From an uncultured Candidatus Saccharibacteria bacterium (GTDB taxonomy: Bacteria > Patescibacteriota > Saccharimonadia > Saccharimonadales > EFPC-124): DNA of 64,000 bases. Below are positions 1 through 38,595 of this stretch, in pieces. Each line of letters opens with the position of its first letter. The stretch's first letter is position 1. A program made the position numbers and the translations under genes. The stretch covers positions 118,894 through 182,893 of the forward strand of contig CAZJVU010000002.1 in NCBI GenBank assembly GCA_964550035.1, in the 5' to 3' direction. Below the pieces are notes generated by a model, which saw only the letters and a program-made list of their open reading frames with translations, was not told the origin of the DNA and made no database searches.

Positions 1-2
1 GC

Positions 3-262
3 TACGATCAGCCACAAGACAAGAAAGGTTATTTGGAAGGGGCAGGTAACTTTTTTCGCGCGACAACGAGTGTCAAAATCATGCAGAAGATCATCGACGG
101 CGATCGAGTTGCCCTGATAGCTCGTTACACAGTCCGCTCACCTAAAAAGGTACAGTCGGTACATGTGACGTCGCTGAATTCTTGACCATTACCGATGGCA
201 AACTCACGGCGTCTTCTATCTTTTTTGACCTGAAGGCGTTTGGTGAGCTTGTGCAACGATAA
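3..262 (+). pseudogene. NTF2/SnoaL-like protein, 3' part entering from the left edge, apparent frameshift near 141-150
   Basis: Frame 3 reads ...GYLEGAGNFFRATTSVKIMQKIIDGDRVALIARYTVRSPKK and stops at 183-185. The shifted frame from 149 continues GTVGTCDVAEFLTITDGKLTASSIFFDLKAFGELVQR* (stop 260-262). The joined sequence resembles SnoaL-like proteins; family call from memory. Confidence 0.35.
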
Positions 263-293
263 GCCGATGACGCAGGTTACGTTTAAGATAATC

Positions 294-333
294 TCATGGC
301 TGGGGATAGTGGATGAATTCCAAACTTTTGAGG
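294..333. repeat. Copy A of the tRNA-Gln 3'-end core motif (TCATGGCTGGGGA) with flank tagtggatgaattccaaactttt
   Basis: 13 nt are identical to 8262-8274 (tRNA-Gln 3' end plus 3 nt) and to 5595-5607. The right flank is similar to copy C (5608-5636). Confidence 0.6.
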
Positions 334-348
334 CTAATGAACTGAAGT

Positions 349-855
349 TTAGTCGGCGCCTACTCTATACTGCTCAAGTATATTTTCCGAACCGAAGAGA
401 GAGCGCACGAGGTGATCTGCGAATGGCGTAAATGAAAAGGTATGACAATTCTCCTTTGAAACAAGTACCAGGCCCTTGCCTTCATGAACAGTGAGCTTTT
501 GGGGGTCGACTGGTTTGGTGCAACGGACTACATGGACGAAGTTGCTGTCACCATGAGCGCTGAGTTGTTTTTGATAATCTCCCAGCTTTTCGATATGGAT
601 GCGGTCGAGTGTTAATTCAAGTTCTTCGTCAATTTCACGGATTGCGGCATCGATCGGGTCTTCGTGACCTTCGCAGTGCCCACCAAAGAACCCCACTTTA
701 TCTCGCAAGTGAGCAGCACCCTGATGGTTGCTGTCTCGGTGCTGAAGAATCAGTGTTCCATCGCTTGTTGTGAGTACAACTGCGACGATGTGGGAGGGTT
801 TGGGCTGACCGGGGTGTGCATCCTCGCTGTTCTGATAAAGGTTCGTCATAAACAT
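349..855 (-). CDS. NUDIX hydrolase
   Basis: 168 aa ORF with a Nudix box: GGHCEGHEDPIDAAIREIDEELEL (GX5EX7REUXEEXGU pattern). Confidence 0.85.
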   Translation of the reverse strand: MFMTNLYQNSEDAHPGQPKPSHIVAVVLTTSDGTLILQHRDSNHQGAAHLRDKVGFFGGHCEGHEDPIDAAIREIDEELELTLDRIHIEKLGDYQKQLSAHGDSNFVHVVRCTKPVDPQKLTVHEGKGLVLVSKENCHTFSFTPFADHLVRSLFGSENILEQYRVGAD

Positions 856-913
856 ATATTAGCATTAGTGAGGAATTCGCATGTTTGAAGATGATACTTG
901 GATGAGATGAACA

Positions 914-939
914 AACAAAAAGAGGCTCTGGACAGCCTC
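914..939 (-). terminator. Intrinsic terminator downstream of the MMPL gene
   Basis: Stem GAGGCT (922-927) / AGCCTC (934-939) with a 6-nt loop. The A-run at 915-921 on the plus strand gives a T-tract after the stem on the minus strand. Confidence 0.55.
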
Positions 940-969
940 AATTTGTTGACAAATTATGTAATTATTTCC

Positions 970-1017
970 TGGCTGGGGATGAAGGATTCGAACCCTATCA
1001 AGTAGGGACCAAACTGT
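970..1017 (-). repeat. Degenerate tRNA-Gln-like 3' fragment (copy B; acceptor 3' strand, T-arm, part of anticodon arm)
   Basis: tggctggggatgaaggattcgaaccctatcaagtagggaccaaa aligns with 8265-8309 of the real tRNA-Gln (tggctggggaggagggactcgaacccccgaatgccaggaccaaaa). No matching 5' acceptor strand or 5' half, and the T-stem is imperfect. Confidence 0.6.
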
Positions 1018-1027
1018 AGATTACTAG

Positions 1028-3259
1028 CTACTTGTCTTGCTTGCCACCAATCCATCCTGGTATCCACCAATTCCAACGACCCATAAGTCTCATAGCAGCA
1101 GGCACCAAGAGCAGTCGGATAAGCGTCGCATCAATCAACACAGCAATAGCCAGTGCGAATCCCAGCTGTTTTATCTCAAGCATGCCCGCTATGAAGAATG
1201 AAGCGAACACGACTACCATGATTGCTGCGGCATTTGTAATGACCCTCGCGGCGTGTTCGATGCCACGCGCAACAGCGGTAGTATTATCGTGCGTTTTGCG
1301 CCATTCTTCCTGAATGCGCGTAAGAAGAAAAACCTCATAGTCCATGGATAGACCAAATAAAATAACAAACGTTAAAAGTGGTAGGTAGGACTGAATGTAC
1401 CCAGGCGAAACAAACCCTAGTAAATGCTGACCAAATCCGTGTTGAAACACAATCACCATGAGGCCAAAGGCTGCACTCAGTGCAAGCAGATTCATGATGA
1501 TAGACTTGAGTGGCAGTACGAGACTTCTAAAGTTAAAGGCTAGTAAGAAAAAGGATAAACCAAGTACGAATGACAGAACAATTGGGAGCGAGCGATAAAC
1601 TTCAGCGTTGAGGTCAACAATTTGGGCACTTAAACCTGTCAGTCCAAAATGCAGATCACTTTGCGTGCTGGTTGGAATCATCGCGGACGTAATGTCGCGG
1701 GCAAGCTGTATTGATGGCTCAGTATCAGCAGCCGCACGAGGCACGACAGTTATGATTGCTACGTTCGACCCCTGATCAGTGTTAATCTGCCCAGAGAGTA
1801 CCTTGGTTTGTTCGGCTATCTGGAATGCGGCTAAGCCATGACCGCCGGTTAGTGCGTCAAGACTTAGGGTTGGTGAGCTGACGCTTGCCACCCGTGGATC
1901 ATTCTGTAGGCGTTTGCTAAGCGTAGATAGGGCGACCAGATCTTTGTCAGTAAATGACCCGCTCGAACGCGACGCGACAACTTGGATCGGCGAAGTAAGG
2001 CCTGGAGAAAACGCTTGCTCTATCAAGCGCAAGCCTTGAGCTGAAGGCTGATCTCTAAGCGTTCCTGTCCCTAGATTGAGTCCGAGTTGCAAGCCGCCAA
2101 CTGGCCACGCCATAGCAGTCAAAAGAACAATCGTTGTAACTGTTACGAGAATCGGACGCTGCATGACAAAATGCGCCCAGCGCGCCCAGTAACCCTGTTC
2201 GACATCTGGCTTAGCATTTTGTCGATGTCGATGAGGCAAAATCTGTAACGAATTAATATGTTTTCCTAGTAGGCGTAAGATAATCGGCAGTAGTGTCAGG
2301 GAAAGTGCTAACATAGTGCCGACGGTGCAAATGGTACCTATTCCTAGGCCTCTGAATATCGGTGAGCGTACAAGCAGCAGCCCACTCAGAGAAATAAGTA
2401 CGGTTATACCCGAAAAGAGCACAGCCTTACCTGCTGTCTTCATCGTATTTCGTATTGCCATGTCGGGTGATCTGTGGGTTGCTAGTTCTTCGCGGAAACG
2501 TGTCACGATCATAAGCGAGTAGTCGATACCGAGAGCGAGGCCTAGCATTGTCACAGCAGACTCTACAAAAACATCGAAATGCAGCCACTTACTCAGTAGT
2601 CCGAGAATCCCAAAGGTTATACTCACCCCAGTGGCGCCGAGGAACAACGGCAAACCGGCAGCTATAACCGAACGAAAAGCGATAAGCAGGACGAGAAACG
2701 CAATAGGCAAACCGATCATATCTGCCTTGGCAAGATCGCTATTTTCCTGTTCGATAACGTCAGCGTTAAGCGGTGAAGCTCCTGTAAGGTAGACTTTTAT
2801 GCCATTAGTGCTATGAGGCAGAGCGTTAGCGAGAACAGTGGAGTTTTTCTGAAGGTCACTATCGCTCCCGGATAACCCCACAATAATGAAAGCCGTATGT
2901 GCATCGCTCGATATTTGCGATATTGGGCTTTGATCGTATGGGCTAATCAGCGATGTTACATGCGGCTTACCCGTGAGCGAACCTAGCGCTTGTTCGACAG
3001 TCAAACGGTATGCTGGGTCACTTGCAACGAGCCGATCAGAGTGAAAGACAACTAAATCCTGTTCAGATGAGGCTGAGTAAAATTGCTTGTTAAGCAAATC
3101 TTGGGTACGTTGCGATGACGAGCCGTCAACCGTAAAGGATGCACCCCCTAATCCGTTTAGGAATGTCGGAATCATTGCGCCGAAGCCGATAGTTACGAGC
3201 AACCAACCCACAAGAATCAGGATGCTACGTTTATTTGTGGGTTTTTTATTCATAGACAT
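1028..3259 (-). CDS. MMPL/RND-superfamily membrane transporter
   Basis: 743 aa with two roughly 6-TM blocks, each followed by an MmpL-like motif (MIVTRFREEL, FLLTRIQEEW), and large extracytoplasmic loops. Confidence 0.8.
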   Translation of the reverse strand: MSMNKKPTNKRSILILVGWLLVTIGFGAMIPTFLNGLGGASFTVDGSSSQRTQDLLNKQFYSASSEQDLVVFHSDRLVASDPAYRLTVEQALGSLTGKPHVTSLISPYDQSPISQISSDAHTAFIIVGLSGSDSDLQKNSTVLANALPHSTNGIKVYLTGASPLNADVIEQENSDLAKADMIGLPIAFLVLLIAFRSVIAAGLPLFLGATGVSITFGILGLLSKWLHFDVFVESAVTMLGLALGIDYSLMIVTRFREELATHRSPDMAIRNTMKTAGKAVLFSGITVLISLSGLLLVRSPIFRGLGIGTICTVGTMLALSLTLLPIILRLLGKHINSLQILPHRHRQNAKPDVEQGYWARWAHFVMQRPILVTVTTIVLLTAMAWPVGGLQLGLNLGTGTLRDQPSAQGLRLIEQAFSPGLTSPIQVVASRSSGSFTDKDLVALSTLSKRLQNDPRVASVSSPTLSLDALTGGHGLAAFQIAEQTKVLSGQINTDQGSNVAIITVVPRAAADTEPSIQLARDITSAMIPTSTQSDLHFGLTGLSAQIVDLNAEVYRSLPIVLSFVLGLSFFLLAFNFRSLVLPLKSIIMNLLALSAAFGLMVIVFQHGFGQHLLGFVSPGYIQSYLPLLTFVILFGLSMDYEVFLLTRIQEEWRKTHDNTTAVARGIEHAARVITNAAAIMVVVFASFFIAGMLEIKQLGFALAIAVLIDATLIRLLLVPAAMRLMGRWNWWIPGWIGGKQDK

Positions 3260-3266
3260 TTATTCA

Positions 3267-3599
3267 TCACTCAAATCTGTAAATACCACTTAGGTTTAGC
3301 ATGATCACACCGAGTATCACAAGGAAAATCGCGCCTATACGAAAGGGTGTAAGTGTTTCGTGAAAGAAAACAACTCCTGCTGCTACGACAAGAACCGTAC
3401 CAAGCCCTGCCCATATGGGATAGGCAATATTGAGCGGCATTGTCTTCATAGCTATAGATATTGCCCAAAATGACAATATGTAGCCAACGATTACTATGAT
3501 TGAAGGAATGGGTTTTGTGAAGCCATGAGACAATTTTAGGTTGGTTGTGGCAATGACTTCACAGACAATTGCACCAAAAAGAAAGAGCCATTGTTGCAT
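3267..3599 (-). CDS. SMR-family small multidrug/quaternary-cation efflux protein (EmrE/SugE-like)
   Basis: 110 aa, 4 TM segments. Conserved membrane Glu in TM1 (FGAIVCEVIATTNLK). 7-nt gap to the MMPL gene, so a likely operon. Confidence 0.85.
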   Translation of the reverse strand: MQQWLFLFGAIVCEVIATTNLKLSHGFTKPIPSIIVIVGYILSFWAISIAMKTMPLNIAYPIWAGLGTVLVVAAGVVFFHETLTPFRIGAIFLVILGVIMLNLSGIYRFE

Positions 3600-4017
3600 G
3601 ACAACTTCTCCGTTTAAGTTAGTAGTTCGACCCAGAGGCTCACTCTGGCAATCCGCCGCCGACGAAATACAAACTAACGGTTTCTATATTTAGGATAGCA
3701 TAAGAACGGTTTTTATGATCAATTGAATCGCTTCCTTTATACAATAATCCCCACTTAGGTGGAGTGATCCGGATTACAATCCCTGACCGAGAAGATAGAG
3801 AAAGTCATATGAAGCTGACCATCTACCTATCTTCTATAGCTTTTAGCTCGGCTTCAAAGTACACCAGCATTTTCTCCAGCGAGCGAATATCATTGGCTAT
3901 GTCTTTAGTTTTTTGTGCGAAAAAATGACGGCGCTTCTGCGTAGTTAATAGTTGTTGTCATAGGCGGCTACAAGGTACTTTAGATCTTTTATTGTGAATC
4001 CTGCTTGACGGGCTTGC

Positions 4018-4617
4018 TTGAAGCTCGTATTGGCGCTCCTCGGCAGTATCGGGCTCGTTGTGCTTGGTCCATCCGGCTCGGCGCACGCAAACCCTGGCTG
4101 CGCGAATGGTGGTGTATATGCCATTTTCGCACGTGGATCGGGTGAGCACTTCAACGATCAACGAGCGACCTACTTCGAGGCTAACCTGAGAGCTTCGCTT
4201 CAGTCGAAGGTTAGCATGGCTTACGCCGAACTCGGCAACTTCGACAATAACTACTCAGTCGGAGGTGACGAATACCCGGCCGTGGGTGGCCTCGAAGCTG
4301 GCTTTACGCCCACCTATAGTTCCAGTGTCACTAAGGGGGCCAATGAACTGGTCGCCTACCTCAACAACCGCGTAACCGCATGTCCCCAAGAGTCCATCGT
4401 TCTCGGTGGCTACTCGCAGGGAGCAGACGTTGTCGGGTGGACGATTCAGCGAAGCGACCTCAGCCAGACGGCAAAGAACCACATCGGCTTCGTGGCGCTC
4501 TATGGCGACCCCAAATTCAACGCAGGGCCGCTCGACGACCGCATGAACAACGTCAACTTCAGCACAAACTGGTGGTGGGTGCGCGGCAGCGGGCCGGGAT
4601 GGCTACAACTTATTTGA
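4018..4617 (+). pseudogene. Cutinase-like secreted serine hydrolase, C-terminally truncated copy
   Basis: Signal peptide, then NPGC..FARGSGE..LGGYSQGADV (cutinase GYSQG nucleophile motif). Collinear with 38596..39909 up to WWWVRG, then ends (GWLQLI*) before the region holding the Asp/His of the full copy (CAAGDFVC...H). Confidence 0.6.
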
Positions 4618-4680
4618 TAGATATAGCAAAAGATGGTATTATTACCCAGTTCCAAAAAGAACACACGAGCTTGAAGGTGG

Positions 4681-4971
4681 GTGATCCGCGTGAAAGCGAA
4701 AGCACGTCGTCTACTTGGCCTACTCTTGTGCCTGGCACTGGGGGTAGGCGCAGTACTCGTGAGTCCTGGAGTAGCACAAGCAGACCCAGGATGCGTCAAT
4801 GCAGGAGCCTATGTGCTCTTCGCAAGAGGAGCTACGGCACCCCTCGACTCTGGGCCAGCCCTAGAGTTCAGAAGCGACGTCACGAGTCAGCTCAATGCTC
4901 GGGGCGTGCCGAGTGCATGGGCCGAACTGGGAAACCTCGACAACGTCTACAATACAGTAAAGCCCAACTAA
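4681..4971 (+). pseudogene. Cutinase-like protein, N-terminal fragment only
   Basis: Signal peptide plus DPGCVNAGAYVLFARGA...WAELGNLDNVYN matches the N-terminus of 38596..39909. Ends 3 nt before the recombinase remnant. Own TGgTATTAT -10-like element and GAAGGTGGG RBS in the AT-rich spacer 4618-4680. Confidence 0.55.
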
Positions 4972-4974
4972 TTC

Positions 4975-5669
4975 TTGGCCGAAAGGACAAGCCGCAAAAG
5001 ACCATGCGAGAATCGTAAGACTGTCGAAGAAAAGAACATTGCCGAACAGCTCTATGCAATATTAGACAAATATACCATCCATCCACTGTTCGAAGAATGG
5101 GCGCTTGAGGCAATGAAGGAAGTGAACGCCGATGAGGCCAAAGAGCGTGAGGCAATTGAAAATAGTCAATTCAAAAACTTGCAGCAGCTACGCCAACAGC
5201 ATGACAAGCTAATTGACCTGGCCGGCAAAGAGCTAATCCGTGAAGATAAGTTTAAGGAAAAATCTCAGGAGTTACTTGAACAGATTAAGAACGCTGAAAA
5301 TGCAGTTTCTGAAACCAATGTCAGAGCCGTGAATTGGCGTGATGCGCTACAGAAGACAATCGATACGATAGCTCACGGCCGCGCGCGCTTCCAGGGTGGT
5401 GACATGCCACAAAGCGAGATGTGCTACTAGCGCTTGGTGCGCACCCAACCTTACATAATGGAATCGTAGAGCTGGAGCCGTATGAGTGGCTAATCCCTAT
5501 CGAAAAAGCCCTTCCTGGCTTAAAGGAAGAGCTTTCTCAAGTTAAACCCCATGATCTACAGATAGGAAATCCTCGTTTAGAGCCTATCCGCACATCATGG
5601 CTGGGGACAGTGGACATGTTCCAAACTTTCCAAACCGTATTTTGCGAGGCTTTTTATGGCCGAAATTAG
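4975..5669 (+). pseudogene. Large serine recombinase remnant (C-terminal zinc-ribbon/coiled-coil part only, frameshifted)
   Basis: No N-terminal catalytic domain. EKNIAEQLYAILDKYTIHPLFEEWALEAMK...coiled coil...ARFQGGDMP, then a frameshift near 5407-5412; the other frame continues KRDVLLALGAHPTLHNGIVELEPYEW. This pattern resembles recombinase-family C-termini (from memory). Confidence 0.55.
5595..5636. repeat. Copy C of the tRNA-Gln 3'-end core motif, inside the recombinase remnant 3' end
   Basis: cgcacatcatggctgggga differs at 1 position from cgcatatcatggctgggga at 8256-8274. The right flank cagtggacatgttccaaacttt resembles copy A. Confidence 0.6.
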
Positions 5670-5814
5670 CAATGAAATCTATGAGCAGCTTCGTCGAATT
5701 TTAGAGAAACAGAATGGACGAGATTATTCATTTGAGGAGGCGAAGGCAATTGGTGATGGACTCATAGATTTCTTTAATTTTCTCATGAGCCTAGATGGCG
5801 AAGTTGAAAATTAA
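5656..5814 (+). CDS. Small hypothetical protein (52 aa)
   Basis: ATG 5656 to TAA 5812-5814: MAEISNEIYEQLRRILEKQNGRDYSFEEAKAIGDGLIDFFNFLMSLDGEVEN. Below the ORF-track cutoff, no clear RBS. Confidence 0.25.
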   Translation: MAEISNEIYEQLRRILEKQNGRDYSFEEAKAIGDGLIDFFNFLMSLDGEVEN

Positions 5815-5816
5815 AT

Positions 5817-7340
5817 TTATCGAGAGATTATATTTTGGAGCTCCTCAAAGCATTCTGCAAATTCATCCTTAGTAATTTTTGTACCAACGAAGATGGCTAG
5901 CTCATTCTTCTGCTTATTGCTAGCTCTTTTAACCCACACCTCGATACTTTCAACAATATTTTGCTGCTCTTTAAATTCGGCCCATATACGGTCTGGATAC
6001 ATTGCTTCTAGAGTAGCGACTGGTCGCTCATCTTTTCTAGTAAGAATAAACCGTTTTGCTAGTTGTTCCTGCGCAACTTTAACTTTTTGCTTCGCATTAT
6101 TACCGTTATTGCTACTTGAGCCCTTAGCGTTGCCGTCGCCATCAAAAAAGTCGGGATTCCAATCGGTGAAGATGACATATGATGTTTTCCATGATTGCGA
6201 AAACGCAAAGTATTTACTCATTTGGGCAAGATTTTCAATGTTTTTGCCAACCTCGCCATCGCCGCCGCCTGCAACTACGTCCACGTACTTATAATGTGGC
6301 TTAATTTCCTCACGGGCGAGGTAGGTATCAAGTAGTGTCTTTTTGGATAGTTCCTCAACAAGTATAGGTATTTCGGGCATGCCAATATCTTTGGGTTCGA
6401 CTCCAAGCATAGAGCTTATAAGTACTGCCGAGCTTAGCGAGTCGATGCCTTCTGACGTTTCGGTCTCGGTCATTTTTCCATTCTTGGCAATCATGGGCAT
6501 GCCCTTTGGCCCGAAGTAATACACATTGCAATCAGGATTCTCCAGCGCTGCCGCAACAACCTCCACATTGTGAGTAGCGATAAAGACCTGTGAGGCTGCC
6601 CCAGTTTGCTGAACTTTGCTCGCGATTTCATCTACGATTTTTTTGCGTACTCGTGGGAAAAGGCTATTGTCGGCTTCATCAAATAAAGCGAGGCGCAAAT
6701 CGCTATCGTTTTCGCCAAAGTTCATAACTGACATGATCGTTGCAGCAACATGGACACCATTTGAGAAAAACCTTTCATTGATACTGCGATTTTCACTCTG
6801 TTGTTTTATCGGGCCGAATTCTGTATAGGCTGTCGTTATGCTTCCAATTGAAGCTCCACTAGAATCGAAAAAGGGCACATGATCGTTTAGAGTATCAGAG
6901 CTGTGCTCTTTAGCAAGTCGGAAAACCTGAAATTTGTCCCTAAATGGTTGTGTGTCTAAGCCTTCCCAGGCGTCGCCTAGATAGCGGATGTTGAATTTCA
7001 AGGAACCGTCACCTGGGTCTGACTTTATTTCCCACATATTATAGTTACTTGGGTGAAAGCTAAGAGAAACATCATACTCTTTGTTGGCAATCTTCATAAC
7101 AAGATTAACGTTACCTTCGAACAGTGAGTAAAAATTTCTGCGCGGCTGGCTATTGACGGCAGCTTCAATGGTGTGAGGCCTGGTTACGAAGGGTAGTAAC
7201 AAACAGATTACCTCTAGAAAGCTAGACTTGCCGGATCCGTTCGGTCCAACAAGGATGTTTACTTTTTTAAGTGATGTAAGCGTGAAGCCTTGGTGCCATC
7301 GAAATTTTTTAAAACCTTTGATACTTATTTCGTCAATCAT
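5817..7340 (-). CDS. ABC/AAA-type ATPase (AAA_15/21-like) with a possible Toprim/DUF4435-like C-terminal domain
   Basis: Walker A GPNGSGKSS near the N-terminus, Walker B LALFDEADNSL, IATHN. The C-terminal ~190 aa has IPILVEELSKK, VVAGGGDG, VIFTDWNPDFFDGD and ATLEAMYP, loosely like OLD/DUF4435 Toprim motifs (weak, from memory). Confidence 0.65.
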   Translation of the reverse strand: MIDEISIKGFKKFRWHQGFTLTSLKKVNILVGPNGSGKSSFLEVICLLLPFVTRPHTIEAAVNSQPRRNFYSLFEGNVNLVMKIANKEYDVSLSFHPSNYNMWEIKSDPGDGSLKFNIRYLGDAWEGLDTQPFRDKFQVFRLAKEHSSDTLNDHVPFFDSSGASIGSITTAYTEFGPIKQQSENRSINERFFSNGVHVAATIMSVMNFGENDSDLRLALFDEADNSLFPRVRKKIVDEIASKVQQTGAASQVFIATHNVEVVAAALENPDCNVYYFGPKGMPMIAKNGKMTETETSEGIDSLSSAVLISSMLGVEPKDIGMPEIPILVEELSKKTLLDTYLAREEIKPHYKYVDVVAGGGDGEVGKNIENLAQMSKYFAFSQSWKTSYVIFTDWNPDFFDGDGNAKGSSSNNGNNAKQKVKVAQEQLAKRFILTRKDERPVATLEAMYPDRIWAEFKEQQNIVESIEVWVKRASNKQKNELAIFVGTKITKDEFAECFEELQNIISR

Positions 7341-7521
7341 AGCTTCTTCATATTATTCTGATTCGAGAATCTTTTCCATAACATCAGCGAGCTGAGTTAT
7401 TTCTGTTGCGTATTTATTAACGTCGCTAGCTTCTTCGCCCGCAATCTTTATGCACAAGTTGTAGGTTCTGCTTAGAGTAATTAGGGGAACGTCTAGGGCA
7501 TGGCTGCGATGCTCGACAAGT

Positions 7522-8214
7522 CTACTGGGCGAACTGAATCTCGAAGCGGGGTGTACGATCAAAAACAGTGGCGGTCGTATTGATATGCGTCACGTTCCAA
7601 TACTTGGGCAACCTATAAGATATGAGAGAAATGCCGATGCTCTCTATCGCTCTAGCTACATAAGCAAACATCTTTTTGGCGGCGACAGGATTATTAATAT
7701 CGGAGAGGTCTTTCTTGTCTCGTAAATCGCCATCATGCTCGTGGGCATTGCGATTATCGCGTAATACATCTTGCCAGTTCTTCTTTTGACTGTCTATTAA
7801 TTGTTTAAGCCAATCAAGCCCAGGATACTTTGCGCAGAAAGCAGTAATCTGGGATTCGTATTGACTATCGCCTGCGACGATTGCACCAGCCTCATAGCCA
7901 ATTGCTCTAAGAAACTTAACTAGACGATCTTTATAGGCACTCCAAAGCGCTGCATAAAGAGAGCTGTAAATTGCTTCTTGCTCGGAAGTCGGAATCGAAG
8001 AGAACTCAGGGGCTCGTATCGTTTTGTAGAAATTGCGTGCTTCACTTAATTTTTCGTAAATGCGGTCTGCACGAAAATCCGCCTCATCTTTCGCTTCTGC
8101 GTCCTCTATCTTATCTGCGGCATCTTTTAGAAGGACCCAAACGCTCTCAACCTCTGGGTCTTCCGGACCCCACTCTGCTGATAGCTTCAAGTTTGGAATC
8201 GTGACGTTTGTCAT
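7522..8214 (-). CDS. Hypothetical protein (230 aa), first gene next to the tRNA-Gln 3' end, upstream of the ATPase
   Basis: Long ORF in a low-GC island, same strand as the ATPase. No motif recognised. Confidence 0.55.
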   Translation of the reverse strand: MTNVTIPNLKLSAEWGPEDPEVESVWVLLKDAADKIEDAEAKDEADFRADRIYEKLSEARNFYKTIRAPEFSSIPTSEQEAIYSSLYAALWSAYKDRLVKFLRAIGYEAGAIVAGDSQYESQITAFCAKYPGLDWLKQLIDSQKKNWQDVLRDNRNAHEHDGDLRDKKDLSDINNPVAAKKMFAYVARAIESIGISLISYRLPKYWNVTHINTTATVFDRTPRFEIQFAQ

Positions 8215-8264
8215 AAATTTATCCTTGATTTGAGCTCAATTCCAAACTGATTGAGCGCATATCA

Positions 8265-8339
8265 TGGCTGGGGAGGAGGGACTCGAACCCCCGAATGCCA
8301 GGACCAAAACCTGGTGCCTTACCACTTGGCGACTCCCCA
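8265..8339 (-). tRNA. tRNA-Gln (anticodon UUG)
   Basis: Reverse complement is TGGGGAGTCGCCAAGTGGTAAGGCACCAGGTTTTGGTCCTGGCATTCGGGGGTTCGAGTCCCTCCTCCCCAGCCA. Full cloverleaf with a 7-bp acceptor stem, anticodon loop TTTTGGT and encoded CCA. Close to E. coli tRNA-Gln in architecture. Confidence 0.95.
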
Positions 8340-8361
8340 ATAGCGTGTAATAAACAGGCTT

Positions 8362-8390
8362 ATTATACCGGATTTACTCTGTTCCGCCAA
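8362..8390 (-). promoter_or_regulatory. Sigma70-type promoter for tRNA-Gln
   Basis: On the minus strand: TTGGCG (8385-8390), 17-nt spacer, TATAAT (8362-8367), about 22 nt upstream of the tRNA 5' end. Confidence 0.6.
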
Positions 8391-8410
8391 CCATAAGGTG
8401 ACGGGATGGG

Positions 8411-8438
8411 TTGACATTTCAAGTATAAGTGCTATAAT
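8411..8438 (+). promoter_or_regulatory. Consensus sigma70 promoter for the 8493 gene
   Basis: TTGACA (8411-8416), 16-nt spacer, TATAAT (8433-8438). CAGGAG RBS about 9 nt before ATG 8493. Confidence 0.7.
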
Positions 8439-8492
8439 ATTCTCACCGTCCCGCCCCGGGTTGGCCCGAACCTCTCACTTCAGGAGTCATAC

Positions 8493-8810
8493 ATGATCAC
8501 CCTTGCTGGTTTGAGCAACTTCGTCGCCTACATCGACGGCACTCTCGCTGCGATCGTCTCGATCGTGGTGGGCGTGATCGCCGCGTTCAAGGCGGAGCGG
8601 AGCAGTGTCTACACCGTGGTCATGCTCTTGATCGCCGGCGTCGTCGTGACCATGAGTCTCGCGCTTCCGAGCTCGGTTACGAACATGCCCTTCGTGGAAG
8701 GCGTGGTCGTGGCGTTGGCCTTCAAGCTGGCGCTGACCGTGGTCATCGTGGGCGAGATCCACTGCCTTTACGTGCTGGGCGTCTTCTCGCGACGATCGAC
8801 GCAGCAATGA
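8493..8810 (+). CDS. Small hydrophobic membrane protein (105 aa), GC-rich islet
   Basis: Three hydrophobic segments. Preferred over the antisense ORF 8487..8912 because of the consensus promoter, RBS and downstream terminator on the plus strand. Confidence 0.6.
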   Translation: MITLAGLSNFVAYIDGTLAAIVSIVVGVIAAFKAERSSVYTVVMLLIAGVVVTMSLALPSSVTNMPFVEGVVVALAFKLALTVVIVGEIHCLYVLGVFSRRSTQQ

Positions 8811-8855
8811 CTCAAGAAAGAGGGCGGGAGAGGCCATCGTGGCCCTCCCGCAGGG

Positions 8856-8881
8856 AGCCCAAGCAGATGCTTGGGCTTTTT
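8856..8881 (+). terminator. Intrinsic terminator
   Basis: AGCCCAAGC-agat-GCTTGGGCT followed by TTTTTCC. Confidence 0.75.
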
Positions 8882-8936
8882 CCGTATCTAAATCCACGCC
8901 CAATGGCCACACGATGCACTATACTTATACGTAACT

Positions 8937-9068
8937 ATGAAGAAGAAAAACCCAAAGAAAGACGGCAAACGCCAGAAGGCCGCAACGAAGCGCGCTCTTT
9001 ATGAGAAGGCTCGCAGGCAAAAACACAAGAGCAAGAAGCCGCCCGCAAAAAAGGCCACCGATAGCTAG
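8937..9068 (+). CDS. Possible very basic small protein (43 aa)
   Basis: MKKKNPKKDGKRQKAATKRALYEKARRQKHKSKKPPAKKATDS*. A TATACT/TATACG -10-like run sits just upstream with no SD (possibly leaderless). Could be non-coding. Confidence 0.3.
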   Translation: MKKKNPKKDGKRQKAATKRALYEKARRQKHKSKKPPAKKATDS

Positions 9069-36233: not shown

Positions 36234-37094
36234 TTAATACGAAGAGCAAGCTTTCTGCTTGTCTAGCAGTGTCGAGCGCGTTTGGTCATCGACGCCCGAG
36301 AGGGTGATCGTCGACTCGGTGTCATCATTCCAGACGCTGAGCCTCTGCTGTAGTAAGATGCCTATTCGATTCGTGCCTGGAGGAAAGTCTGTATCAGTCA
36401 AATATAGAGAGGCGGGATAGAATCGTGTATTCCAAAGGCATTTGCCCAAAATCGCTTCAGCCTCGGCCTGCGTTATCCATTTTTTGGTCTCGGGCTGCCT
36501 TGGTCGTTCAATATCATAAGTTGGTACAAACCCGCACCTATCTTCAACGTCTTTACGTCGGGCGAGCTGGAAAAGCTCATCATAATACTTAACGTCGAAA
36601 GTGCGCGTCTCTCGGGAAGATCTCATGCCAGGCAAAACTGGCACGTAGGCATTAAGCTGCATCGACCCACCGTTATGCCGCATAATAGTCTCAATCTGGC
36701 ACGTACTTACCAGTGCACGCGCTTGGCTTAATGATATTGGTATCTCCGCCCGTTCTTTCGCTTGTTGTTGCAGGCTAGTACCGACGACGATATAAGCACC
36801 GGTTCCGATTACCGGCAGGAGCGTGATGAGCGCTCCCATCAAATACAACACATACTTCTTAAGCCTTACGGCGAGCACAATAAAGCCGATGGCATTCGCT
36901 ATAAGCAGAATCCCAACGACAAGAAGAATCGGAGCAGTAAAAAGCCCAGCCCAGCCAGTTGTGTCAGCAAAGCTTGTCCACATCGCCCAAGTAAAAATGG
37001 CAAATAATATGAGGTCGAAAAAGATATGAGGTTTGGCAGGAGCTACTGGTTCAGACCAGCTTCTGGATTTAAGTCTAGTTTTTGGCTGTTTCAT
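36234..37094 (-). CDS. Hypothetical membrane protein (286 aa)
   Basis: 4 N-terminal TM segments plus a soluble C-terminal domain. Lower-GC block. Confidence 0.55.
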   Translation of the reverse strand: MKQPKTRLKSRSWSEPVAPAKPHIFFDLILFAIFTWAMWTSFADTTGWAGLFTAPILLVVGILLIANAIGFIVLAVRLKKYVLYLMGALITLLPVIGTGAYIVVGTSLQQQAKERAEIPISLSQARALVSTCQIETIMRHNGGSMQLNAYVPVLPGMRSSRETRTFDVKYYDELFQLARRKDVEDRCGFVPTYDIERPRQPETKKWITQAEAEAILGKCLWNTRFYPASLYLTDTDFPPGTNRIGILLQQRLSVWNDDTESTITLSGVDDQTRSTLLDKQKACSSY

Positions 37095-37100
37095 AATTCG

Positions 37101-37901
37101 TTAGTATGGTCGACCCACGCCCAGAAAGAACAGGATCAAGCCCGATGAACTCCAGATGAAATAAAGTGACACGAGGATTACCAAGACACCAAATGCCCAA
37201 ACCTTCCTCGAGGCTTTTTCGGTCGTCGCGAAATATCGTACCAGGTATACAATGTTCAGTACACCCAATAAGGCGACGACGATGGCTAATACCAAATACC
37301 ACCAAGTCCAGTAAGGATTGATGAAAATGTTGAATGAACTAAATATTGGTTCAGCCGAAAAGGAGACCAAGAAGTAGGTGAAGTTTGCAATGAGTAGACG
37401 TCGGCCCCATACAGCATGTTTAATGCTTTTGAGAGGATACTGCTTATAAATTGCCATAAGAAAGGCGAGTAATGTCAGAACAATAGCCGTACATCCAAAG
37501 AGCGAGCTTGATATACCTACGAGTATCTTCTCGCCAAAAATCCCGCTGAACACGCGGGAGAAAATCGAATGCATGCTTTCTTCTGTATCGCTACCGTTAA
37601 CAACAAAACACCAGAGCAAAATCCAAAGTAGACAAAAGGCAACCTCCATCCAGAAAAGCGTCCGTGGAAGTTTCTCGCCTCTAGGTCTAATTGCATTCGC
37701 AAACTCTACAGCAACCAAAGGCATTAAAGCGGTCAGTAGCATCTCTGGGTGAACCATGAGCCCGAGCGTATACCAACCTGGATTCAAAAAGAAGGTGAGT
37801 GGATACCAGACTACACTCACGACCAGCAGCGTATTAAGGATCACTTTCTTGCGTCTATCAAGCCTTGGCGTTTTCTCGGTGTCTGGTTGCATGTGTTTCA
37901 T
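37101..37901 (-). CDS. Hypothetical polytopic membrane protein (266 aa)
   Basis: At least 7 hydrophobic segments. 6-nt gap to the downstream gene. Confidence 0.55.
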   Translation of the reverse strand: MKHMQPDTEKTPRLDRRKKVILNTLLVVSVVWYPLTFFLNPGWYTLGLMVHPEMLLTALMPLVAVEFANAIRPRGEKLPRTLFWMEVAFCLLWILLWCFVVNGSDTEESMHSIFSRVFSGIFGEKILVGISSSLFGCTAIVLTLLAFLMAIYKQYPLKSIKHAVWGRRLLIANFTYFLVSFSAEPIFSSFNIFINPYWTWWYLVLAIVVALLGVLNIVYLVRYFATTEKASRKVWAFGVLVILVSLYFIWSSSGLILFFLGVGRPY

Positions 37902-37956
37902 AGTTGAGAATAAGCTTACTGGACGTTGCCTGAGATGACAAGTTAGAAAAATCTAA

Positions 37957-38487
37957 CTATGGAGTCTTTGGAGCATACGTAACTGAAATCGATATGTTAA
38001 ACCACTCTTTATTAGTTGGTGGAGAAAATGGCCGTTCATTCTTGCCTAGAACGCCCACAACTCCACTGACACTCCATCTAGAGCTGCCTTCTCTCTGTAG
38101 GATAGCATCGTTAATCTTCTTATAAAGAATCTGCTCCTGATCCTTATCTGCTAACAGATACCAGTGAGTCTCTACGGTAGGGCAAGCAATATCGACACAC
38201 CAGAAGGAATTGATATATTTCTCGCCCTCAGTAACGGTTGCCCTCTGCCGTTCGATGCCACCCATCGGGCCGAGAAGGCCTTTAGTCGCCTCCTCAACCC
38301 CGGTCTTCATGTGAGTCACACCATCTTCATATTTCTGTTCATTCGACTTATATAGACCAACAAGAACAACAGCCAAGATAGCCACAACAACTAGGCCGAT
38401 GAGGCTCAGCCATTTGTTGTGCCGCCAAAAAGTAACCTCTACTTTTCGCGGCTTCTGCTCCTTTGGTTTAGATTGGGAAGATTGCAT
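37957..38487 (-). CDS. Membrane-anchored hypothetical protein (176 aa)
   Basis: Basic N-terminus, a single TM segment and an extracytoplasmic domain. Confidence 0.55.
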   Translation of the reverse strand: MQSSQSKPKEQKPRKVEVTFWRHNKWLSLIGLVVVAILAVVLVGLYKSNEQKYEDGVTHMKTGVEEATKGLLGPMGGIERQRATVTEGEKYINSFWCVDIACPTVETHWYLLADKDQEQILYKKINDAILQREGSSRWSVSGVVGVLGKNERPFSPPTNKEWFNISISVTYAPKTP

Positions 38488-38595
38488 AAGGTTGTAATAA
38501 GTATACTAGAGCTTACTCAGTTCACAAATACTCTCATTACGCTTGCAATGCGAGGCAATCAGTGATAACATCCAGCAAGCTCGTCGCCCCCGAAA

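What the first reader, a model, noticed from the sequence alone, without database searches (positions are those of the whole stretch)
294..8339. tRNA-Gln-anchored accessory island with four copies of the tRNA 3'-end core and a recombinase whose 3' end reads across the core
Seen in sequence: TCATGGCTGGGGA (the tRNA-Gln 3' end including CCA, plus 3 nt) occurs at 8262-8274, 5595-5607 and 294-306. A 10-nt version with a decayed T-arm and anticodon-arm follows at 970-1017. Copies A and C share the right flank (t/c)agtgga...ttccaaacttt. Copy C and the tRNA locus share the left flank cgca(c/t)a.

Copy C lies inside the last codons of the serine-recombinase remnant (...NPRLEPIRTSWLGTVDMFQTF). The 12 codons left of the tRNA read FELNSKLIERISWLG, and copy A reads ...KIISWLGIVDEFQTF.

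Inference: this fits B-core-P' / P-core-P' / P-core-tRNA, meaning two tandem elements integrated at tRNA-Gln by a recombinase whose gene spans its own attP core, followed by heavy decay. The interval is the lowest-GC part of the window (a 60-nt sample at 6001-6060 is 40% GC). Its cargo is a NUDIX hydrolase, MMPL plus SMR efflux genes, cutinase fragments and a defence-like ATPase module.
Basis: partly seen in the sequence, partly recalled or inferred. Interest (0 to 1): 0.65.

Follow-up and report, generated by a model that had tools for sequence, protein, structure and literature searches.

The report
Decayed serine-integrase island at tRNA-Gln
About 8 kb of foreign genes sits beside a glutamine tRNA gene in a Saccharibacteria genome because small mobile elements inserted there one after another and then decayed; their large serine integrase has a gene that runs across its own recombination site, a design shared by a wide group of tRNA-targeting integrases for which I found no published description.

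Summary
TCATGGCTGGGGA occurs exactly at 294, 5595 and 8262 (the 3' end of tRNA-Gln(ttg)). A one-mismatch copy at 967 heads a ~47-nt fossil tRNA.

- The ORF across copy C is the last ~40% of a large serine recombinase (LSR).
- Six intact 532-581 aa relatives were found in Saccharibacteria loci (five named MAGs, one unnamed metagenome contig). Each reads ...EPIRTxWLG across the same core and into the antisense strand of tRNA-Gln.
- The flank shared by copies A and C recurs at independent loci. Its TTC(C/G)AAAC motif lies 4-5 bp further out than the tRNA T-arm TTCGAAC, which is the attP/attB half-site rule of serine integrases.
- Syntenic relatives have the same tRNA empty (terminator plus ATAATTTCA|TGGCTGGGGA). 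Copy A keeps that native flank (ATAATCTCA), so A is attL.
- Another relative carries a different 6-kb island with the same P' arm.

The window island is dead: the recombinase is truncated and the element's conserved backbone genes are missing. Copy B does not fit a simple two-element model.

Beyond the window, 37 of 46 full-length cluster representatives of the wider LSR family end in antisense tRNA. Two were checked at DNA level (tRNA-Ser, tRNA-Trp).

Verdict: new variant of a known kind, interest 0.6.

The parts
288..329 (+). Copy A = attL (B-core-P'). Native B arm ATAATCTCA is at 288-296, the core TCATGGCTGGGGA at 294-306, and the P' arm TAGTGGATGAATTCCAAACTTTT at 307-329.
   Evidence: Exact core. 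The B arm is identical over 9 nt to the flank of the empty tRNA-Gln(ttg) in L036, and matches L040 at 9/12 and L037 at 8/12 of the last 12 nt. The P' arm matches C at 17/22 and the L042 attL at 20/26.
349..855 (-). NUDIX hydrolase gene (168 aa), cargo of the A-B unit.
   Evidence: Pfam PF00293, E=2e-10. Weak PADLOC PDC-S07 hit.
923..1017 (+). Copy B = fossil attB-like site: hairpins, an AT-rich native-type arm (tgtaattatttcc), the core TCCTGGCTGGGGA (967-979), and about 47 nt of decayed tRNA-Gln 3' part (970-1017).
   Evidence: Core with 1 mismatch. Alignment to the resident tRNA. TTCGAAC lies at the attB-type position +18. Not called as a tRNA by ARAGORN or Rfam.
1028..3259 (-). MMPL-family transporter gene (743 aa), cargo.
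   Evidence: Pfam PF03176, E=5e-91.
3267..3599 (-). SMR small multidrug-resistance transporter gene (110 aa), cargo.
   Evidence: Pfam PF00893, E=8e-28.
4018..4971 (+). Two truncated cutinase paralogues (4018-4617 and 4681-4971) in a GC-rich patch. The second abuts the recombinase remnant.
   Evidence: Pfam Cutinase, E=8e-17. 49% identical to the full-length 437-aa cutinase-domain protein at 38596-39909. The two fragments are 40% identical to each other.
4975..5669 (+). Large serine recombinase pseudogene. Only the part matching residues ~320 to the end remains (tail of the Zn ribbon, coiled coil, C-terminal region). There is one frameshift near 5410. The ORF crosses copy C and stops 20 codons after WLG.
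   Evidence: Homologues at 61-77% identity. Intact relatives of 532-581 aa have Resolvase, Recombinase and Zn_ribbon_recom domains and hit phrog_95 integrase at 1e-64. Residue mapping 7-144 to 324-461 of a 555-aa relative. Three-frame translation.
5570..5629 (+). Copy C = P-core-P' junction, attP-like (the chimeric site between tandem units). The P arm lies in the codons for NPRLEPIRTS, the core at 5595-5607, and the P' arm CAGTGGACATGTTCCAAACTTT at 5608-5629.
   Evidence: The same junction type occurs in L003, L009 and L027/L028.
5656..5814 (+). 52-aa ORF of unknown function just inside the C-tRNA unit.
   Evidence: No hit in Pfam, PADLOC or PHROGs.
5817..7340 (-). 507-aa ABC/OLD-type ATPase (AAA_15, AAA_21, SMC_N N-terminal region), defence-like cargo.
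   Evidence: Pfam. PADLOC hits to AbiLi, AriA, PtuA and GajA models, mostly confined to the N-terminal ATPase region.
7522..8214 (-). 230-aa protein of unknown function, lying upstream of the ATPase gene on the same strand.
   Evidence: No family hit. No homologue in any fetched locus.
8256..8274 (+). tRNA-proximal att site (attR-like): a recombinase-type P remnant CGCATATCA (8256-8264) overlapping the core (8262-8274).
   Evidence: Matches 8/9 with the P arm at C (CGCACATCA). The flank is not the native one seen in relatives.
8265..8339 (-). tRNA-Gln(ttg), the integration target (B' side).
   Evidence: ARAGORN. Rfam tRNA 60.5 bits. 95-98.7% identical to the orthologous tRNA in syntenic relatives L037, L040 and L042.

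Best explanation
The window comes from a Saccharibacteria (Saccharimonadales) chromosome. Positions 294-8274 are an additive genomic island built at the 3' end of tRNA-Gln(ttg) by site-specific integration of small elements (~9-10 kb when intact) that encode a large serine recombinase (LSR).

In this family the crossover core TGGCTGGG(G) is the antisense of the tRNA's CCA end, discriminator and acceptor stem. The core is also the W-L-G codons near the end of the recombinase gene. The P half-site is therefore coding sequence (...LEPIRTxW) and the P' half-site follows the core (GGAY, 4-5 nt, TTC(C/G)AAAC, TTT).

Integration (attP x attB) puts B-core-P' at the far end and leaves the recombinase ORF reading into the antisense tRNA at the near end. 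The tRNA is not disrupted, because only the short core is exchanged.

The window shows the following order:
- attL (copy A);
- a NUDIX unit;
- a fossil attB-like tRNA relic (copy B);
- MMPL, SMR and cutinase cargo;
- a recombinase gene cut down to its last ~40%;
- a chimeric P-core-P' junction (copy C);
- a recombinase-less unit with a defence-type ATPase and a 230-aa partner;
- a degenerate P remnant, the core and the tRNA.

So there are at least two accretion units, probably three, and all are now immobile.

Shown: the repeats, recombinase homology, the gene-over-core architecture in relatives, the shifted half-site motif, and the empty or differently filled sites in relatives.

Inferred: that the LSR catalysed the insertions, the order of events, and how the tandem arrangement arose. 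Candidate routes are integration of a cointegrate circle, relaxed site choice, or homologous recombination after natural transformation.
For: Repeats are real and non-random.

The recombinase remnant is homologous to LSRs. Intact relatives have Resolvase, Recombinase and Zn-ribbon domains and hit phrog_95 integrase.

In 17 loci the LSR ORF runs across TGGCTGGGG directly into antisense tRNA-Gln(ttg or ctg).

All 7 hits among GTDB species representatives are Saccharibacteria MAGs. Flanking RsgA and PAP2 homologues are named Candidatus Saccharimonadales.

The P' motif recurs at independent loci. The distal motif of the tRNA half-site (TTCGAAC from +18) matches P' best at offsets +4 and +5 (profile scores 0.65 and 0.57, against 0.33 or less at all other offsets). 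This is the serine-integrase rule that the zinc-ribbon motif lies 5 bp closer to the centre in attB than in attP (PMC3783163).

Empty sites. L037 and L040 are collinear with window 9.1-17.9 kb at 72-81% nt and their tRNA is 95-98% identical. They have a terminator plus (A)ATAATTTCA|TGGCTGGGGA and no second core. L036 has caATAATCTCA|TGGCTGGGG. Copy A carries aagATAATCTCA|TGGCTGGGGA, 8 kb away from the tRNA.

In L037, the SnoaL-like and glyoxalase genes downstream of the empty site are 52% and 56% identical to the genes left of copy A.

L042 has a different 6-kb island without a recombinase at the same tRNA, bounded by terminator-gtAATAATCT|TGGCTGGGAA|TCGTGAACCTATTCCAAACTTTTGA.

Low GC.

Tandem P-core-P' junctions with the tRNA 0.7-0.8 kb further on occur in L003 and L027/L028, and L009 carries five P'-type sites in a row.
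Against: No functional recombinase remains in the window: the N-terminal ~320 residues are missing and there is a frameshift. The element's conserved backbone (DUF5659 and a 454-aa gene) is also missing, so the link between this enzyme and these particular insertions is by homology and site anatomy only.

The P arm next to the tRNA is recognisable over only about 9 nt.

Copy B (a native-type arm plus a fossil tRNA) is not predicted by simple tandem integration.

A dyad-symmetry scan of P against P' gave no clear centre, so the crossover dinucleotide is not assigned.

Canonical serine integrases do not recombine attP with attL or attR (PMC3783163), so the tandem arrays need an extra assumption.

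The empty sites are in relatives at 77-83% protein identity. Synteny on the left flank is weak (52-56% aa, different gene order).
Confidence: 0.85

Rival explanations
1. The 8 kb arrived in this lineage as one pre-assembled composite block rather than by two or three separate integrations here. It would have come as one integration of a cointegrate or dimeric circle, or by homologous recombination after natural transformation with DNA from a relative. Copies B and C would then be relics of events in earlier hosts.
For: The sister-strain contig L002 carries the identical A, B and C arrangement. The fossil tRNA at B matches the resident tRNA at only about 36 of 58 aligned positions, although orthologous tRNAs in relatives are 95-98% identical, which suggests foreign origin. 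An internal intact-looking attP (C) is what integration of a dimer or cointegrate circle would give without breaking the attP x attB rule (PMC3783163). Saccharibacteria are naturally competent (PMC10633639).
Against: The two P' arms (A and C) differ at 5 of 22 positions and the units share no cargo, so they are not two copies of one element. Tandem arrays with different units are common at other loci (L009, L003, L027/L028), which is consistent with repeated local events.
Confidence: 0.2
2. The island was built by a different integrase, for example a tyrosine recombinase crossing over deeper in the tRNA. This would explain the 47-nt fossil at B. The serine-recombinase fragment would be a passenger.
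For: Copy B and similar 18-25-nt tRNA relics (L031 x3, L018, L017, L032) look like the displaced tRNA 3' segments typical of tyrosine-integrase elements. According to the IME review, tRNA 3' ends are the classic targets of tyrosine integrases (PMC5704250).
Against: No tyrosine recombinase domain was found among the island ORFs scanned against Pfam or among the eight largest ORFs of the 6-kb stretch after the fossil in L030. L031 shows only toxin-antitoxin-like ORFs. The LSR gene is physically fused to the core in 17+ loci. The P'/B' motif offset fits serine integrases.
Confidence: 0.07
3. The repeats are not recombination sites. They would be chance or tRNA-derived sequence spread by segmental duplication.
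For: The exact shared block is only 13 nt, and SWLG is a trivial translation of it.
Against: None of 100 shuffles reach the observed count. The flanks carry motifs conserved at independent loci in other genomes. Relatives have empty or differently filled sites.
Confidence: 0.02

Closest known systems
Phage large serine integrases (Listeria A118/LI integrase, phiC31, Bxb1, SPbeta)
   Same: Domain order is Resolvase, Recombinase domain, zinc ribbon with inserted coiled coil. The att sites appear short and simple. [quoted passage not shown]
   Different: No sequence-level match to any solved structure. No hit in the viral contig collection, and the backbone genes scanned matched no phage protein family. 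The target is the extreme 3' end of a tRNA gene and is not disrupted. The attP crossover lies inside the integrase's own last codons. The large LSR att-site survey does not mention tRNA at all (PMC10083194).
Integration-dependent immunity phages (mycobacteriophage BPs type)
   Same: The attP core lies inside an ORF, the target is a tRNA gene, and integration changes the C-terminus of the encoded protein. Tandem prophages with chimeric junctions are described (PMC3694055, PMC9934374).
   Different: There the ORF is the repressor and the integrase is a tyrosine recombinase, and the removed tail is an ssrA-like degradation tag. Here the ORF is the serine integrase itself, and the tails after WLG are short and not conserved.
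SSV1-type (fusellovirus) integrases
   Same: The integrase gene contains its own attP and the element integrates into a tRNA gene (my own knowledge; the review PMC8371274 was listed but not read).
   Different: It is an archaeal tyrosine recombinase, and integration splits the gene into two large parts. Here only the last few codons are exchanged.
Tycheposons and other tRNA-seeded additive islands
   Same: A tRNA acts as the seed. New elements insert next to it and push older ones outward. The islands contain tandem elements separated by partial tRNAs, fragmented integrases and accumulated cargo, in a streamlined genome (bioRxiv 10.1101/2020.12.28.424599).
   Different: Tycheposons use tyrosine recombinases in 474 of 501 cases and occur in Prochlorococcus. 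Here the enzyme is a serine recombinase and the host is a CPR bacterium.
Accretion of ICE/IME elements in tandem at one att site (for example IME_Sag2603_tRNAlys; cis-mobilizable elements that keep att sites but lack an integrase)
   Same: The layout attL, decayed element, chimeric attI, second element, attR, 3' end of the tRNA is the same as A, C and tRNA here (PMC5704250).
   Different: Those use tyrosine integrases with long identity blocks and have conjugation or mobilisation genes. None were seen here.

Membership tests
Large serine recombinase / serine integrase | N-terminal resolvase-type catalytic domain with serine nucleophile | tested here: met
   Met in the intact relatives of L006, L007 and L012: PF00239 at E~1e-17 to 1e-18, with the motif YxRKSS near the N-terminus. 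The window copy itself lacks this part (residues 1 to ~320 are deleted), so it is a pseudogene of the family.
Large serine recombinase / serine integrase | C-terminal Recombinase domain plus zinc ribbon with inserted coiled coil | tested here: met
   PF07508 and PF13408 are detected near or just below the gathering score in the relatives, and phrog_95 integrase at E=1e-64. The window retains only the end of the Zn ribbon, the coiled coil and the C-terminal region.
Large serine recombinase / serine integrase | attP and attB half-sites share a distal (zinc-ribbon) motif displaced ~5 bp toward the centre in attB | tested here: met
   TTCGAAC starts at +18 in every tRNA (B') site. TTC(C/G)AAAC or TCAAAAC starts at +22/23 in all 10 P' sites listed. 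Profile match peaks at offsets +4 and +5 (0.65, 0.57) and is 0.33 or less elsewhere. Rule taken from PMC3783163.
Large serine recombinase / serine integrase | Crossover at a central non-palindromic dinucleotide in a pseudo-palindromic site | tested here: inconclusive
   The symmetry scan of P against P' has no clear peak. The identity block shared by attL and attR is 8-13 nt, so the dinucleotide cannot be placed.
Large serine recombinase / serine integrase | Catalyses attP x attB recombination; excision needs a directionality factor | not testable with these tools
No candidate RDF was identified; the small ORFs are of unknown function.
tRNA-anchored integrative genomic island | Direct repeats of the tRNA 3' end at the borders | tested here: met
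   Exact 13-nt copies at 294 and 8262, plus internal copies at 967 and 5595.
tRNA-anchored integrative genomic island | Presence/absence polymorphism: relatives with an empty site | tested here: met
   L037, L040 (syntenic right flank) and L036 have the tRNA followed directly by a terminator and the native flank. L042 has a different 6-kb island. Caveat: these relatives are at genus-like distance, not the same species.
tRNA-anchored integrative genomic island | Deviant base composition and accessory cargo | tested here: met
   GC is ~0.42-0.49 against ~0.55 elsewhere. Cargo: NUDIX, MMPL, SMR, cutinase fragments and a defence-type ATPase.
tRNA-anchored integrative genomic island | Functional integrase within the island (still mobile) | tested here: not met
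   Only a frameshifted C-terminal ~40% of the LSR remains, and the DUF5659 and 454-aa backbone genes are absent.
Integration-dependent switch (attP inside an ORF that carries a degradation tag) | attP core lies within a coding sequence | tested here: met
   The core TGGCTGGGG encodes W-L-G of the LSR, and conserved coding sequence runs up to it in 17+ loci.
Integration-dependent switch (attP inside an ORF that carries a degradation tag) | The excised-form tail is a conserved functional tag removed on integration | tested here: not met
   Tails after WLG in P' form vary in length (about 2 to more than 20 residues) and in sequence, and one copy is out of frame (L003). Only the DNA motif is conserved.
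Known anti-phage systems (AbiL, PARIS, Septu, Gabija) for the 507-aa ATPase and 230-aa pair | Full-length match of the ATPase and presence of the cognate partner (TOPRIM/HNH nuclease, AriB, AbiLii, etc.) | tested here: inconclusive
   PADLOC hits are mostly confined to the N-terminal P-loop region. One AbiLi model (PDLC02335) spans residues 1-263. The 230-aa neighbour matches no PADLOC, Pfam or PHROGs model.

The most novel reading that the evidence does not exclude
The gene-over-att-site design is not a quirk of this island. It would be the hallmark of a large clade of serine integrases, not described in the papers I searched, that target the CCA ends of many different tRNA genes without disrupting them.

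In this clade integration would act as a built-in switch. It swaps the integrase's C-terminal tail (P'-encoded against antisense-tRNA-encoded) and places the integrase gene in head-on transcription with a strongly expressed tRNA. Integrase activity or expression would then depend on whether the element is integrated.

In CPR bacteria, where no natural plasmids have yet been found, this locus would be the main platform on which small cargo cassettes (toxin-antitoxin, defence, efflux) accumulate.
Probability: 0.25. Interest if true: 0.8.

Novelty: new variant of a known kind. Interest (0 to 1): 0.6.

Why it matters
(1) It defines a concrete site-specific integration system in Saccharibacteria/CPR: enzyme family, attP, attB and crossover core. 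A recent review notes that no natural plasmids are known in this group and that genetic tools are very limited (PMC11665869). A native serine integrase with a ~50-bp site in a conserved tRNA gene is an obvious candidate for an integration vector.

(2) Serine integrases are major genome-engineering tools. The literature I could search treats tRNA 3' ends as targets of tyrosine integrases and describes site-specific serine recombinases as disrupting genes (PMC5704250). The large LSR att-site survey does not mention tRNA (PMC10083194). A clade of LSRs with non-disruptive tRNA targets and a gene-embedded attP widens the known design space.

(3) It shows how an ultra-small episymbiont genome acquires and loses accessory genes (MMPL and SMR transporters, cutinases, NUDIX, defence ATPase, toxin-antitoxin cassettes) at one hot spot.

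Tried and rejected
- A dyad-symmetry scan of the coding P arm against the P' arm, meant to locate the crossover dinucleotide, gave no clear peak. The centre is left unassigned.
- The first alignment (A1) was too gappy for locus search. It was replaced by the trimmed alignment A2.
- Viral-contig scan with the LSR alignment: no relative found, so there is no support for a phage origin.
- PDB sequence search with the intact LSR: nothing at E<=1e-3.
- PHROGs and Pfam on the conserved backbone genes (454 aa, 198 aa, 161 aa, 101 aa) and on the window's 230-aa and 52-aa ORFs: no function found. Only DUF5659 hit, for the 91-aa gene.
- Looked for a tyrosine integrase that could explain the fossil tRNAs, in L030 and L031: none, only toxin-antitoxin modules.
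- First attempt at an empty site through the left-flank RsgA gene gave relatives whose right flanks are not syntenic (L032, L034, L036). This was useful only for the native flank of L036. The right-flank PAP2 gene gave properly syntenic relatives.
- Cluster-member look-up to get the taxonomy of the wider LSR clade returned no organism names.
- Rfam scan of 1-9000 found only the tRNA.
- Ten literature searches found no description of this system. Absence from that library is not proof of novelty.

Full report
**Observation**

The 13-mer TCATGGCTGGGGA is present exactly at 294, 5595 and 8262, and with one mismatch at 967. No shuffle of the window reached the observed number of hits. ARAGORN and Rfam place tRNA-Gln(ttg) at 8265-8339 on the minus strand. 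The 13-mer is therefore three flanking bases, CCA, the discriminator and the start of the acceptor stem, read on the plus strand.

Copy B (967) continues into a decayed tRNA 3' part that reaches the anticodon region.

Copies A and C share 17 of 22 bases to the right of the core. Only 4 of 200,000 random pairs of window 22-mers do as well. C and the tRNA copy share CGCA(C/T)ATCA to the left.

The interval 1-8000 has GC 0.42-0.49, except the cutinase patch, against about 0.55 elsewhere.

Pfam confirms NUDIX, MMPL, SMR, cutinase and an AAA_15/AAA_21-type ATPase.

**What the ORF across copy C is**

Joined across one frameshift near 5410, the two ORFs 4975-5430 and 5421-5669 are 61-77% identical to a set of proteins. 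One of these (P0012) has a resolvase N-terminus.

A search of one genome per species found seven loci, all in Candidatus Saccharibacteria/Saccharimonadales MAGs. A metagenome scan added nineteen more loci.

Six loci contain intact ORFs of 532-581 aa from the first ATG. Those scanned have Resolvase, Recombinase and Zn-ribbon domains and a strong match to the phage integrase family phrog_95. These are large serine recombinases (LSRs).

The window copy retains only the part matching residues ~320 to the end. It directly abuts a truncated cutinase gene. The two genes that always precede the recombinase in intact elements, DUF5659 and an unknown 454-aa protein found in 10-11 loci, are absent. The window's element is gutted.

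**The gene spans the att core**

In 17 independent loci the conserved coding sequence runs ...(N/S)PxLEPIRT-x-W-L-G, and the next bases are the body of a tRNA-Gln gene (ttg or ctg) on the opposite strand. W-L-G is encoded by TGGCTGGGG, which is the antisense of the tRNA's CCA end and acceptor stem.

The block shared between the two ends of an element is 8-13 nt: TGGCTGGG in L006 and L042, and 13 nt in the window. The crossover must therefore fall inside these codons.

In other loci the same ORF crosses the core into a non-tRNA sequence, with the tRNA lying 0.7-0.8 kb further on (L003, L027/L028) and 2.7 kb further on at window copy C. L009 has five such sites in a row.

**The flank shared by A and C is an attP half-site**

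All these non-tRNA right flanks share one pattern: core, N3-4, GGAY-like, 4-5 nt, TTC(C/G)AAAC or TCAAAAC, TTT. The tRNA side reads: core, N3, GGGAY, TTCGAAC.

The distal motif of the tRNA half-site matches the P' profile best when shifted outward by 4-5 bp. The scores are 0.65 and 0.57, against 0.33 or less at every other offset.

This is the defining geometry of serine-integrase sites. The zinc-ribbon motif is present in both attP and attB but lies 5 bp nearer the centre in attB (PMC3783163).

The peptide tail after WLG is not conserved in length or sequence. 'D.FQTF' therefore reflects a DNA motif, not a protein motif.

I could not place the crossover dinucleotide, because the P arm is constrained by coding and the symmetry scan was flat.

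**Empty and alternative sites**

The genome is a member of Saccharimonadales. Homologues of RsgA and PAP2 that carry a source name are annotated as that order.

Relatives found through the right-flank PAP2 gene are collinear with window 9.1-17.9 kb at 72-81% nt and carry a tRNA-Gln(ttg) 95-98.7% identical to the window's.
- In L037 and L040 the tRNA is followed directly by a terminator hairpin and (A)ATAATTTCA|TGGCTGGGGA. There is no second core and no recombinase.
- L036 has caATAATCTCA|TGGCTGGGG.
- Window copy A has aagATAATCTCA|TGGCTGGGGA, whereas the flank now touching the tRNA is the recombinase-like ...CGCATATCA.

So A carries the native flank, displaced by 8 kb. This is what B-core-P' predicts.

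Genes just beyond copy A (a frameshifted SnoaL-like gene and a glyoxalase) have 52-56% homologues just downstream of the empty site in L037.

L042 has a different 6-kb island without a recombinase at the same tRNA. It carries HxlR, a BBE oxidase, AlkA/Ada, MGMT and MFS genes. It is bounded by a terminator, gtAATAATCT|TGGCTGGGAA and a P' arm that matches copy A at 20 of 26 bases.

**How the island most likely formed**

Site-specific integration at the tRNA 3' end explains A, C and the tRNA-side copy.

The internal P-core-P' junction at C is the chimeric site expected between tandem units. Comparable layouts are described for tyrosine-integrase elements (PMC5704250, PMC9934374) and for tRNA-seeded islands such as those built by tycheposons (bioRxiv 10.1101/2020.12.28.424599).

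Canonical serine integrases do not use attL or attR as targets. The tandem state therefore needs one of three things:
- integration of a cointegrate or dimer circle, which leaves an intact internal attP;
- relaxed site choice;
- homologous recombination after natural transformation (Saccharibacteria are competent, PMC10633639).

I cannot choose between these. I give 0.2 to the variant in which the block arrived pre-assembled.

**What is not explained**

Copy B has hairpins and an AT-rich arm like native tRNA downstream flanks, followed by the core and about 47 nt of a tRNA-Gln that is far more diverged than any orthologue. It is an attB-like fossil inside the island.

Similar relics of 18-25 nt occur elsewhere. 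L031 has three in a row, separated by toxin-antitoxin cassettes. L018, L017 and L032 have others.

A tyrosine-integrase explanation found no support.

**A wider pattern**

An exhaustive search with the window fragment found 243 clusters (50% identity level) at E<=1e-3. Of the 46 full-length representatives:
- 24 end with W-x4-[DEGA][SL][NH] in the last 45 residues, while none of the 23,303 body residues match. This spacing is exactly that of antisense CCA, discriminator, acceptor stem, T stem and T loop;
- 6 more stop two or three residues after a W;
- 7 more show the T-loop signature without W.

At least 20 different x4 peptides occur, implying many different tRNA targets.

Two distant members were checked at DNA level. 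One ORF overlaps tRNA-Ser(gct) and the other overlaps tRNA-Trp(cca).

**Comparison with what is known, and verdict**

The enzyme is a member of the large serine recombinases, and the island is an ordinary kind of object: a decayed tRNA-anchored additive island. Three things are unusual:
- a serine rather than a tyrosine recombinase at a tRNA 3' end;
- the attP crossover inside the integrase's own last codons;
- the host phylum.

I found no description of this in ten literature searches. The large LSR att-site survey does not mention tRNA (PMC10083194). I cannot exclude prior description outside the searchable library.

I rate it a new variant of a known kind, interest 0.6, with confidence 0.85 in the main explanation.

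Noticed in passing
window 4975-5430 as query; proteins P0253-P0401; loci L044 36-1709 and L045 3001-4689: The wider LSR family (243 clusters at 50% identity) shows the same design. 37 of 46 full-length representatives end in antisense tRNA, and 24 of them have the exact W-x4-(D/E/G)(S/L)N spacing. At least 20 different acceptor-stem peptides occur. At DNA level, one ORF overlaps tRNA-Ser(gct) and another overlaps tRNA-Trp(cca).
   Followed up: partly
L009 912, 10402, 12902, 14499, 15988 (complete Saccharibacteria chromosome OY969928.1): Five P'-type core sites lie in one array: a ~9.5-kb element with a frameshifted recombinase, followed by units of 2.5, 1.6 and 1.5 kb. The last two sites have near-identical P' flanks over the ~70 nt seen. 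The intact tRNA presumably lies beyond the record's start.
   Followed up: partly
L031 90, 1499, 2185: Three repeats of core plus T-arm (~25 nt) follow the recombinase end. Small toxin-antitoxin cassettes lie between them (a Phd/RelE-like pair and an AbrB plus Fic/Doc-like pair, judged from the sequences only). No intact tRNA-Gln was found in the 3 kb beyond the last repeat, where trehalase-like, NUDIX-like and RarA-like ORFs follow (judged from sequence only). L030 similarly has two YafQ/RelB pairs between a fossil and the intact tRNA. This looks like cassette-wise accretion.
   Followed up: partly
L006 6871-8677 and the equivalent positions in L004, L007, L008, L010-L014, L017, L018: Intact elements share a conserved backbone directly upstream of the recombinase: a DUF5659 protein (~91 aa) and a 454-aa protein with no Pfam or PHROGs match. 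This may be the element's replication or transfer function.
   Followed up: partly
L042 14779-20877: A syntenic relative carries a different 6-kb island without a recombinase at the same tRNA-Gln(ttg). Its cargo includes DNA-repair and detoxification genes (AlkA/Ada-type regulator, O6-methylguanine methyltransferase, BBE oxidase, MFS). It is bounded by an attL with a window-like P' arm.
   Followed up: partly
window 8189-8198 and 8240-8248: AAGTTTGGAA and TTCCAAACT form an inverted repeat around the start codon (8214) of the 230-aa gene. The sequence is the same as the distal P' motif. It could be a spare recombinase-binding site, an operator or chance.
   Followed up: no
window 36234-39909: A second low-GC patch (0.436 at 37-38 kb) holds three ORFs with no family match. 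Next to it is a full-length 437-aa cutinase-domain protein (38596-39909) that is 49% identical to the truncated cutinase in the island. Cutinase and MMPL genes in an episymbiont of Actinobacteria may be host-derived.
   Followed up: partly
L032 11784-11801 and L034 2408-2432: Short tRNA-Gln 3' relics occur near RsgA in two relatives. In L032 an 18-nt relic lies 182 nt downstream of an apparently empty tRNA-Gln(ctg). In L034 a ~25-nt decayed relic lies just upstream of RsgA. These look like scars of earlier events at this hot spot.
   Followed up: no
window 1-260 (continues in L001 4912-5211): The SnoaL/NTF2-like gene immediately left of copy A appears frameshifted: a 93-aa ORF, then ...GKLTASSIFFDLKAFGELVQR in another frame.
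   Followed up: no
L001 end (= window 8293) and L002 end (42 nt after copy C): Both short-read contigs that carry this island break at or just after a core copy. This fits repeat-induced or strain-variable junctions in the source samples SRR9179560 and SRR9179562.
   Followed up: no
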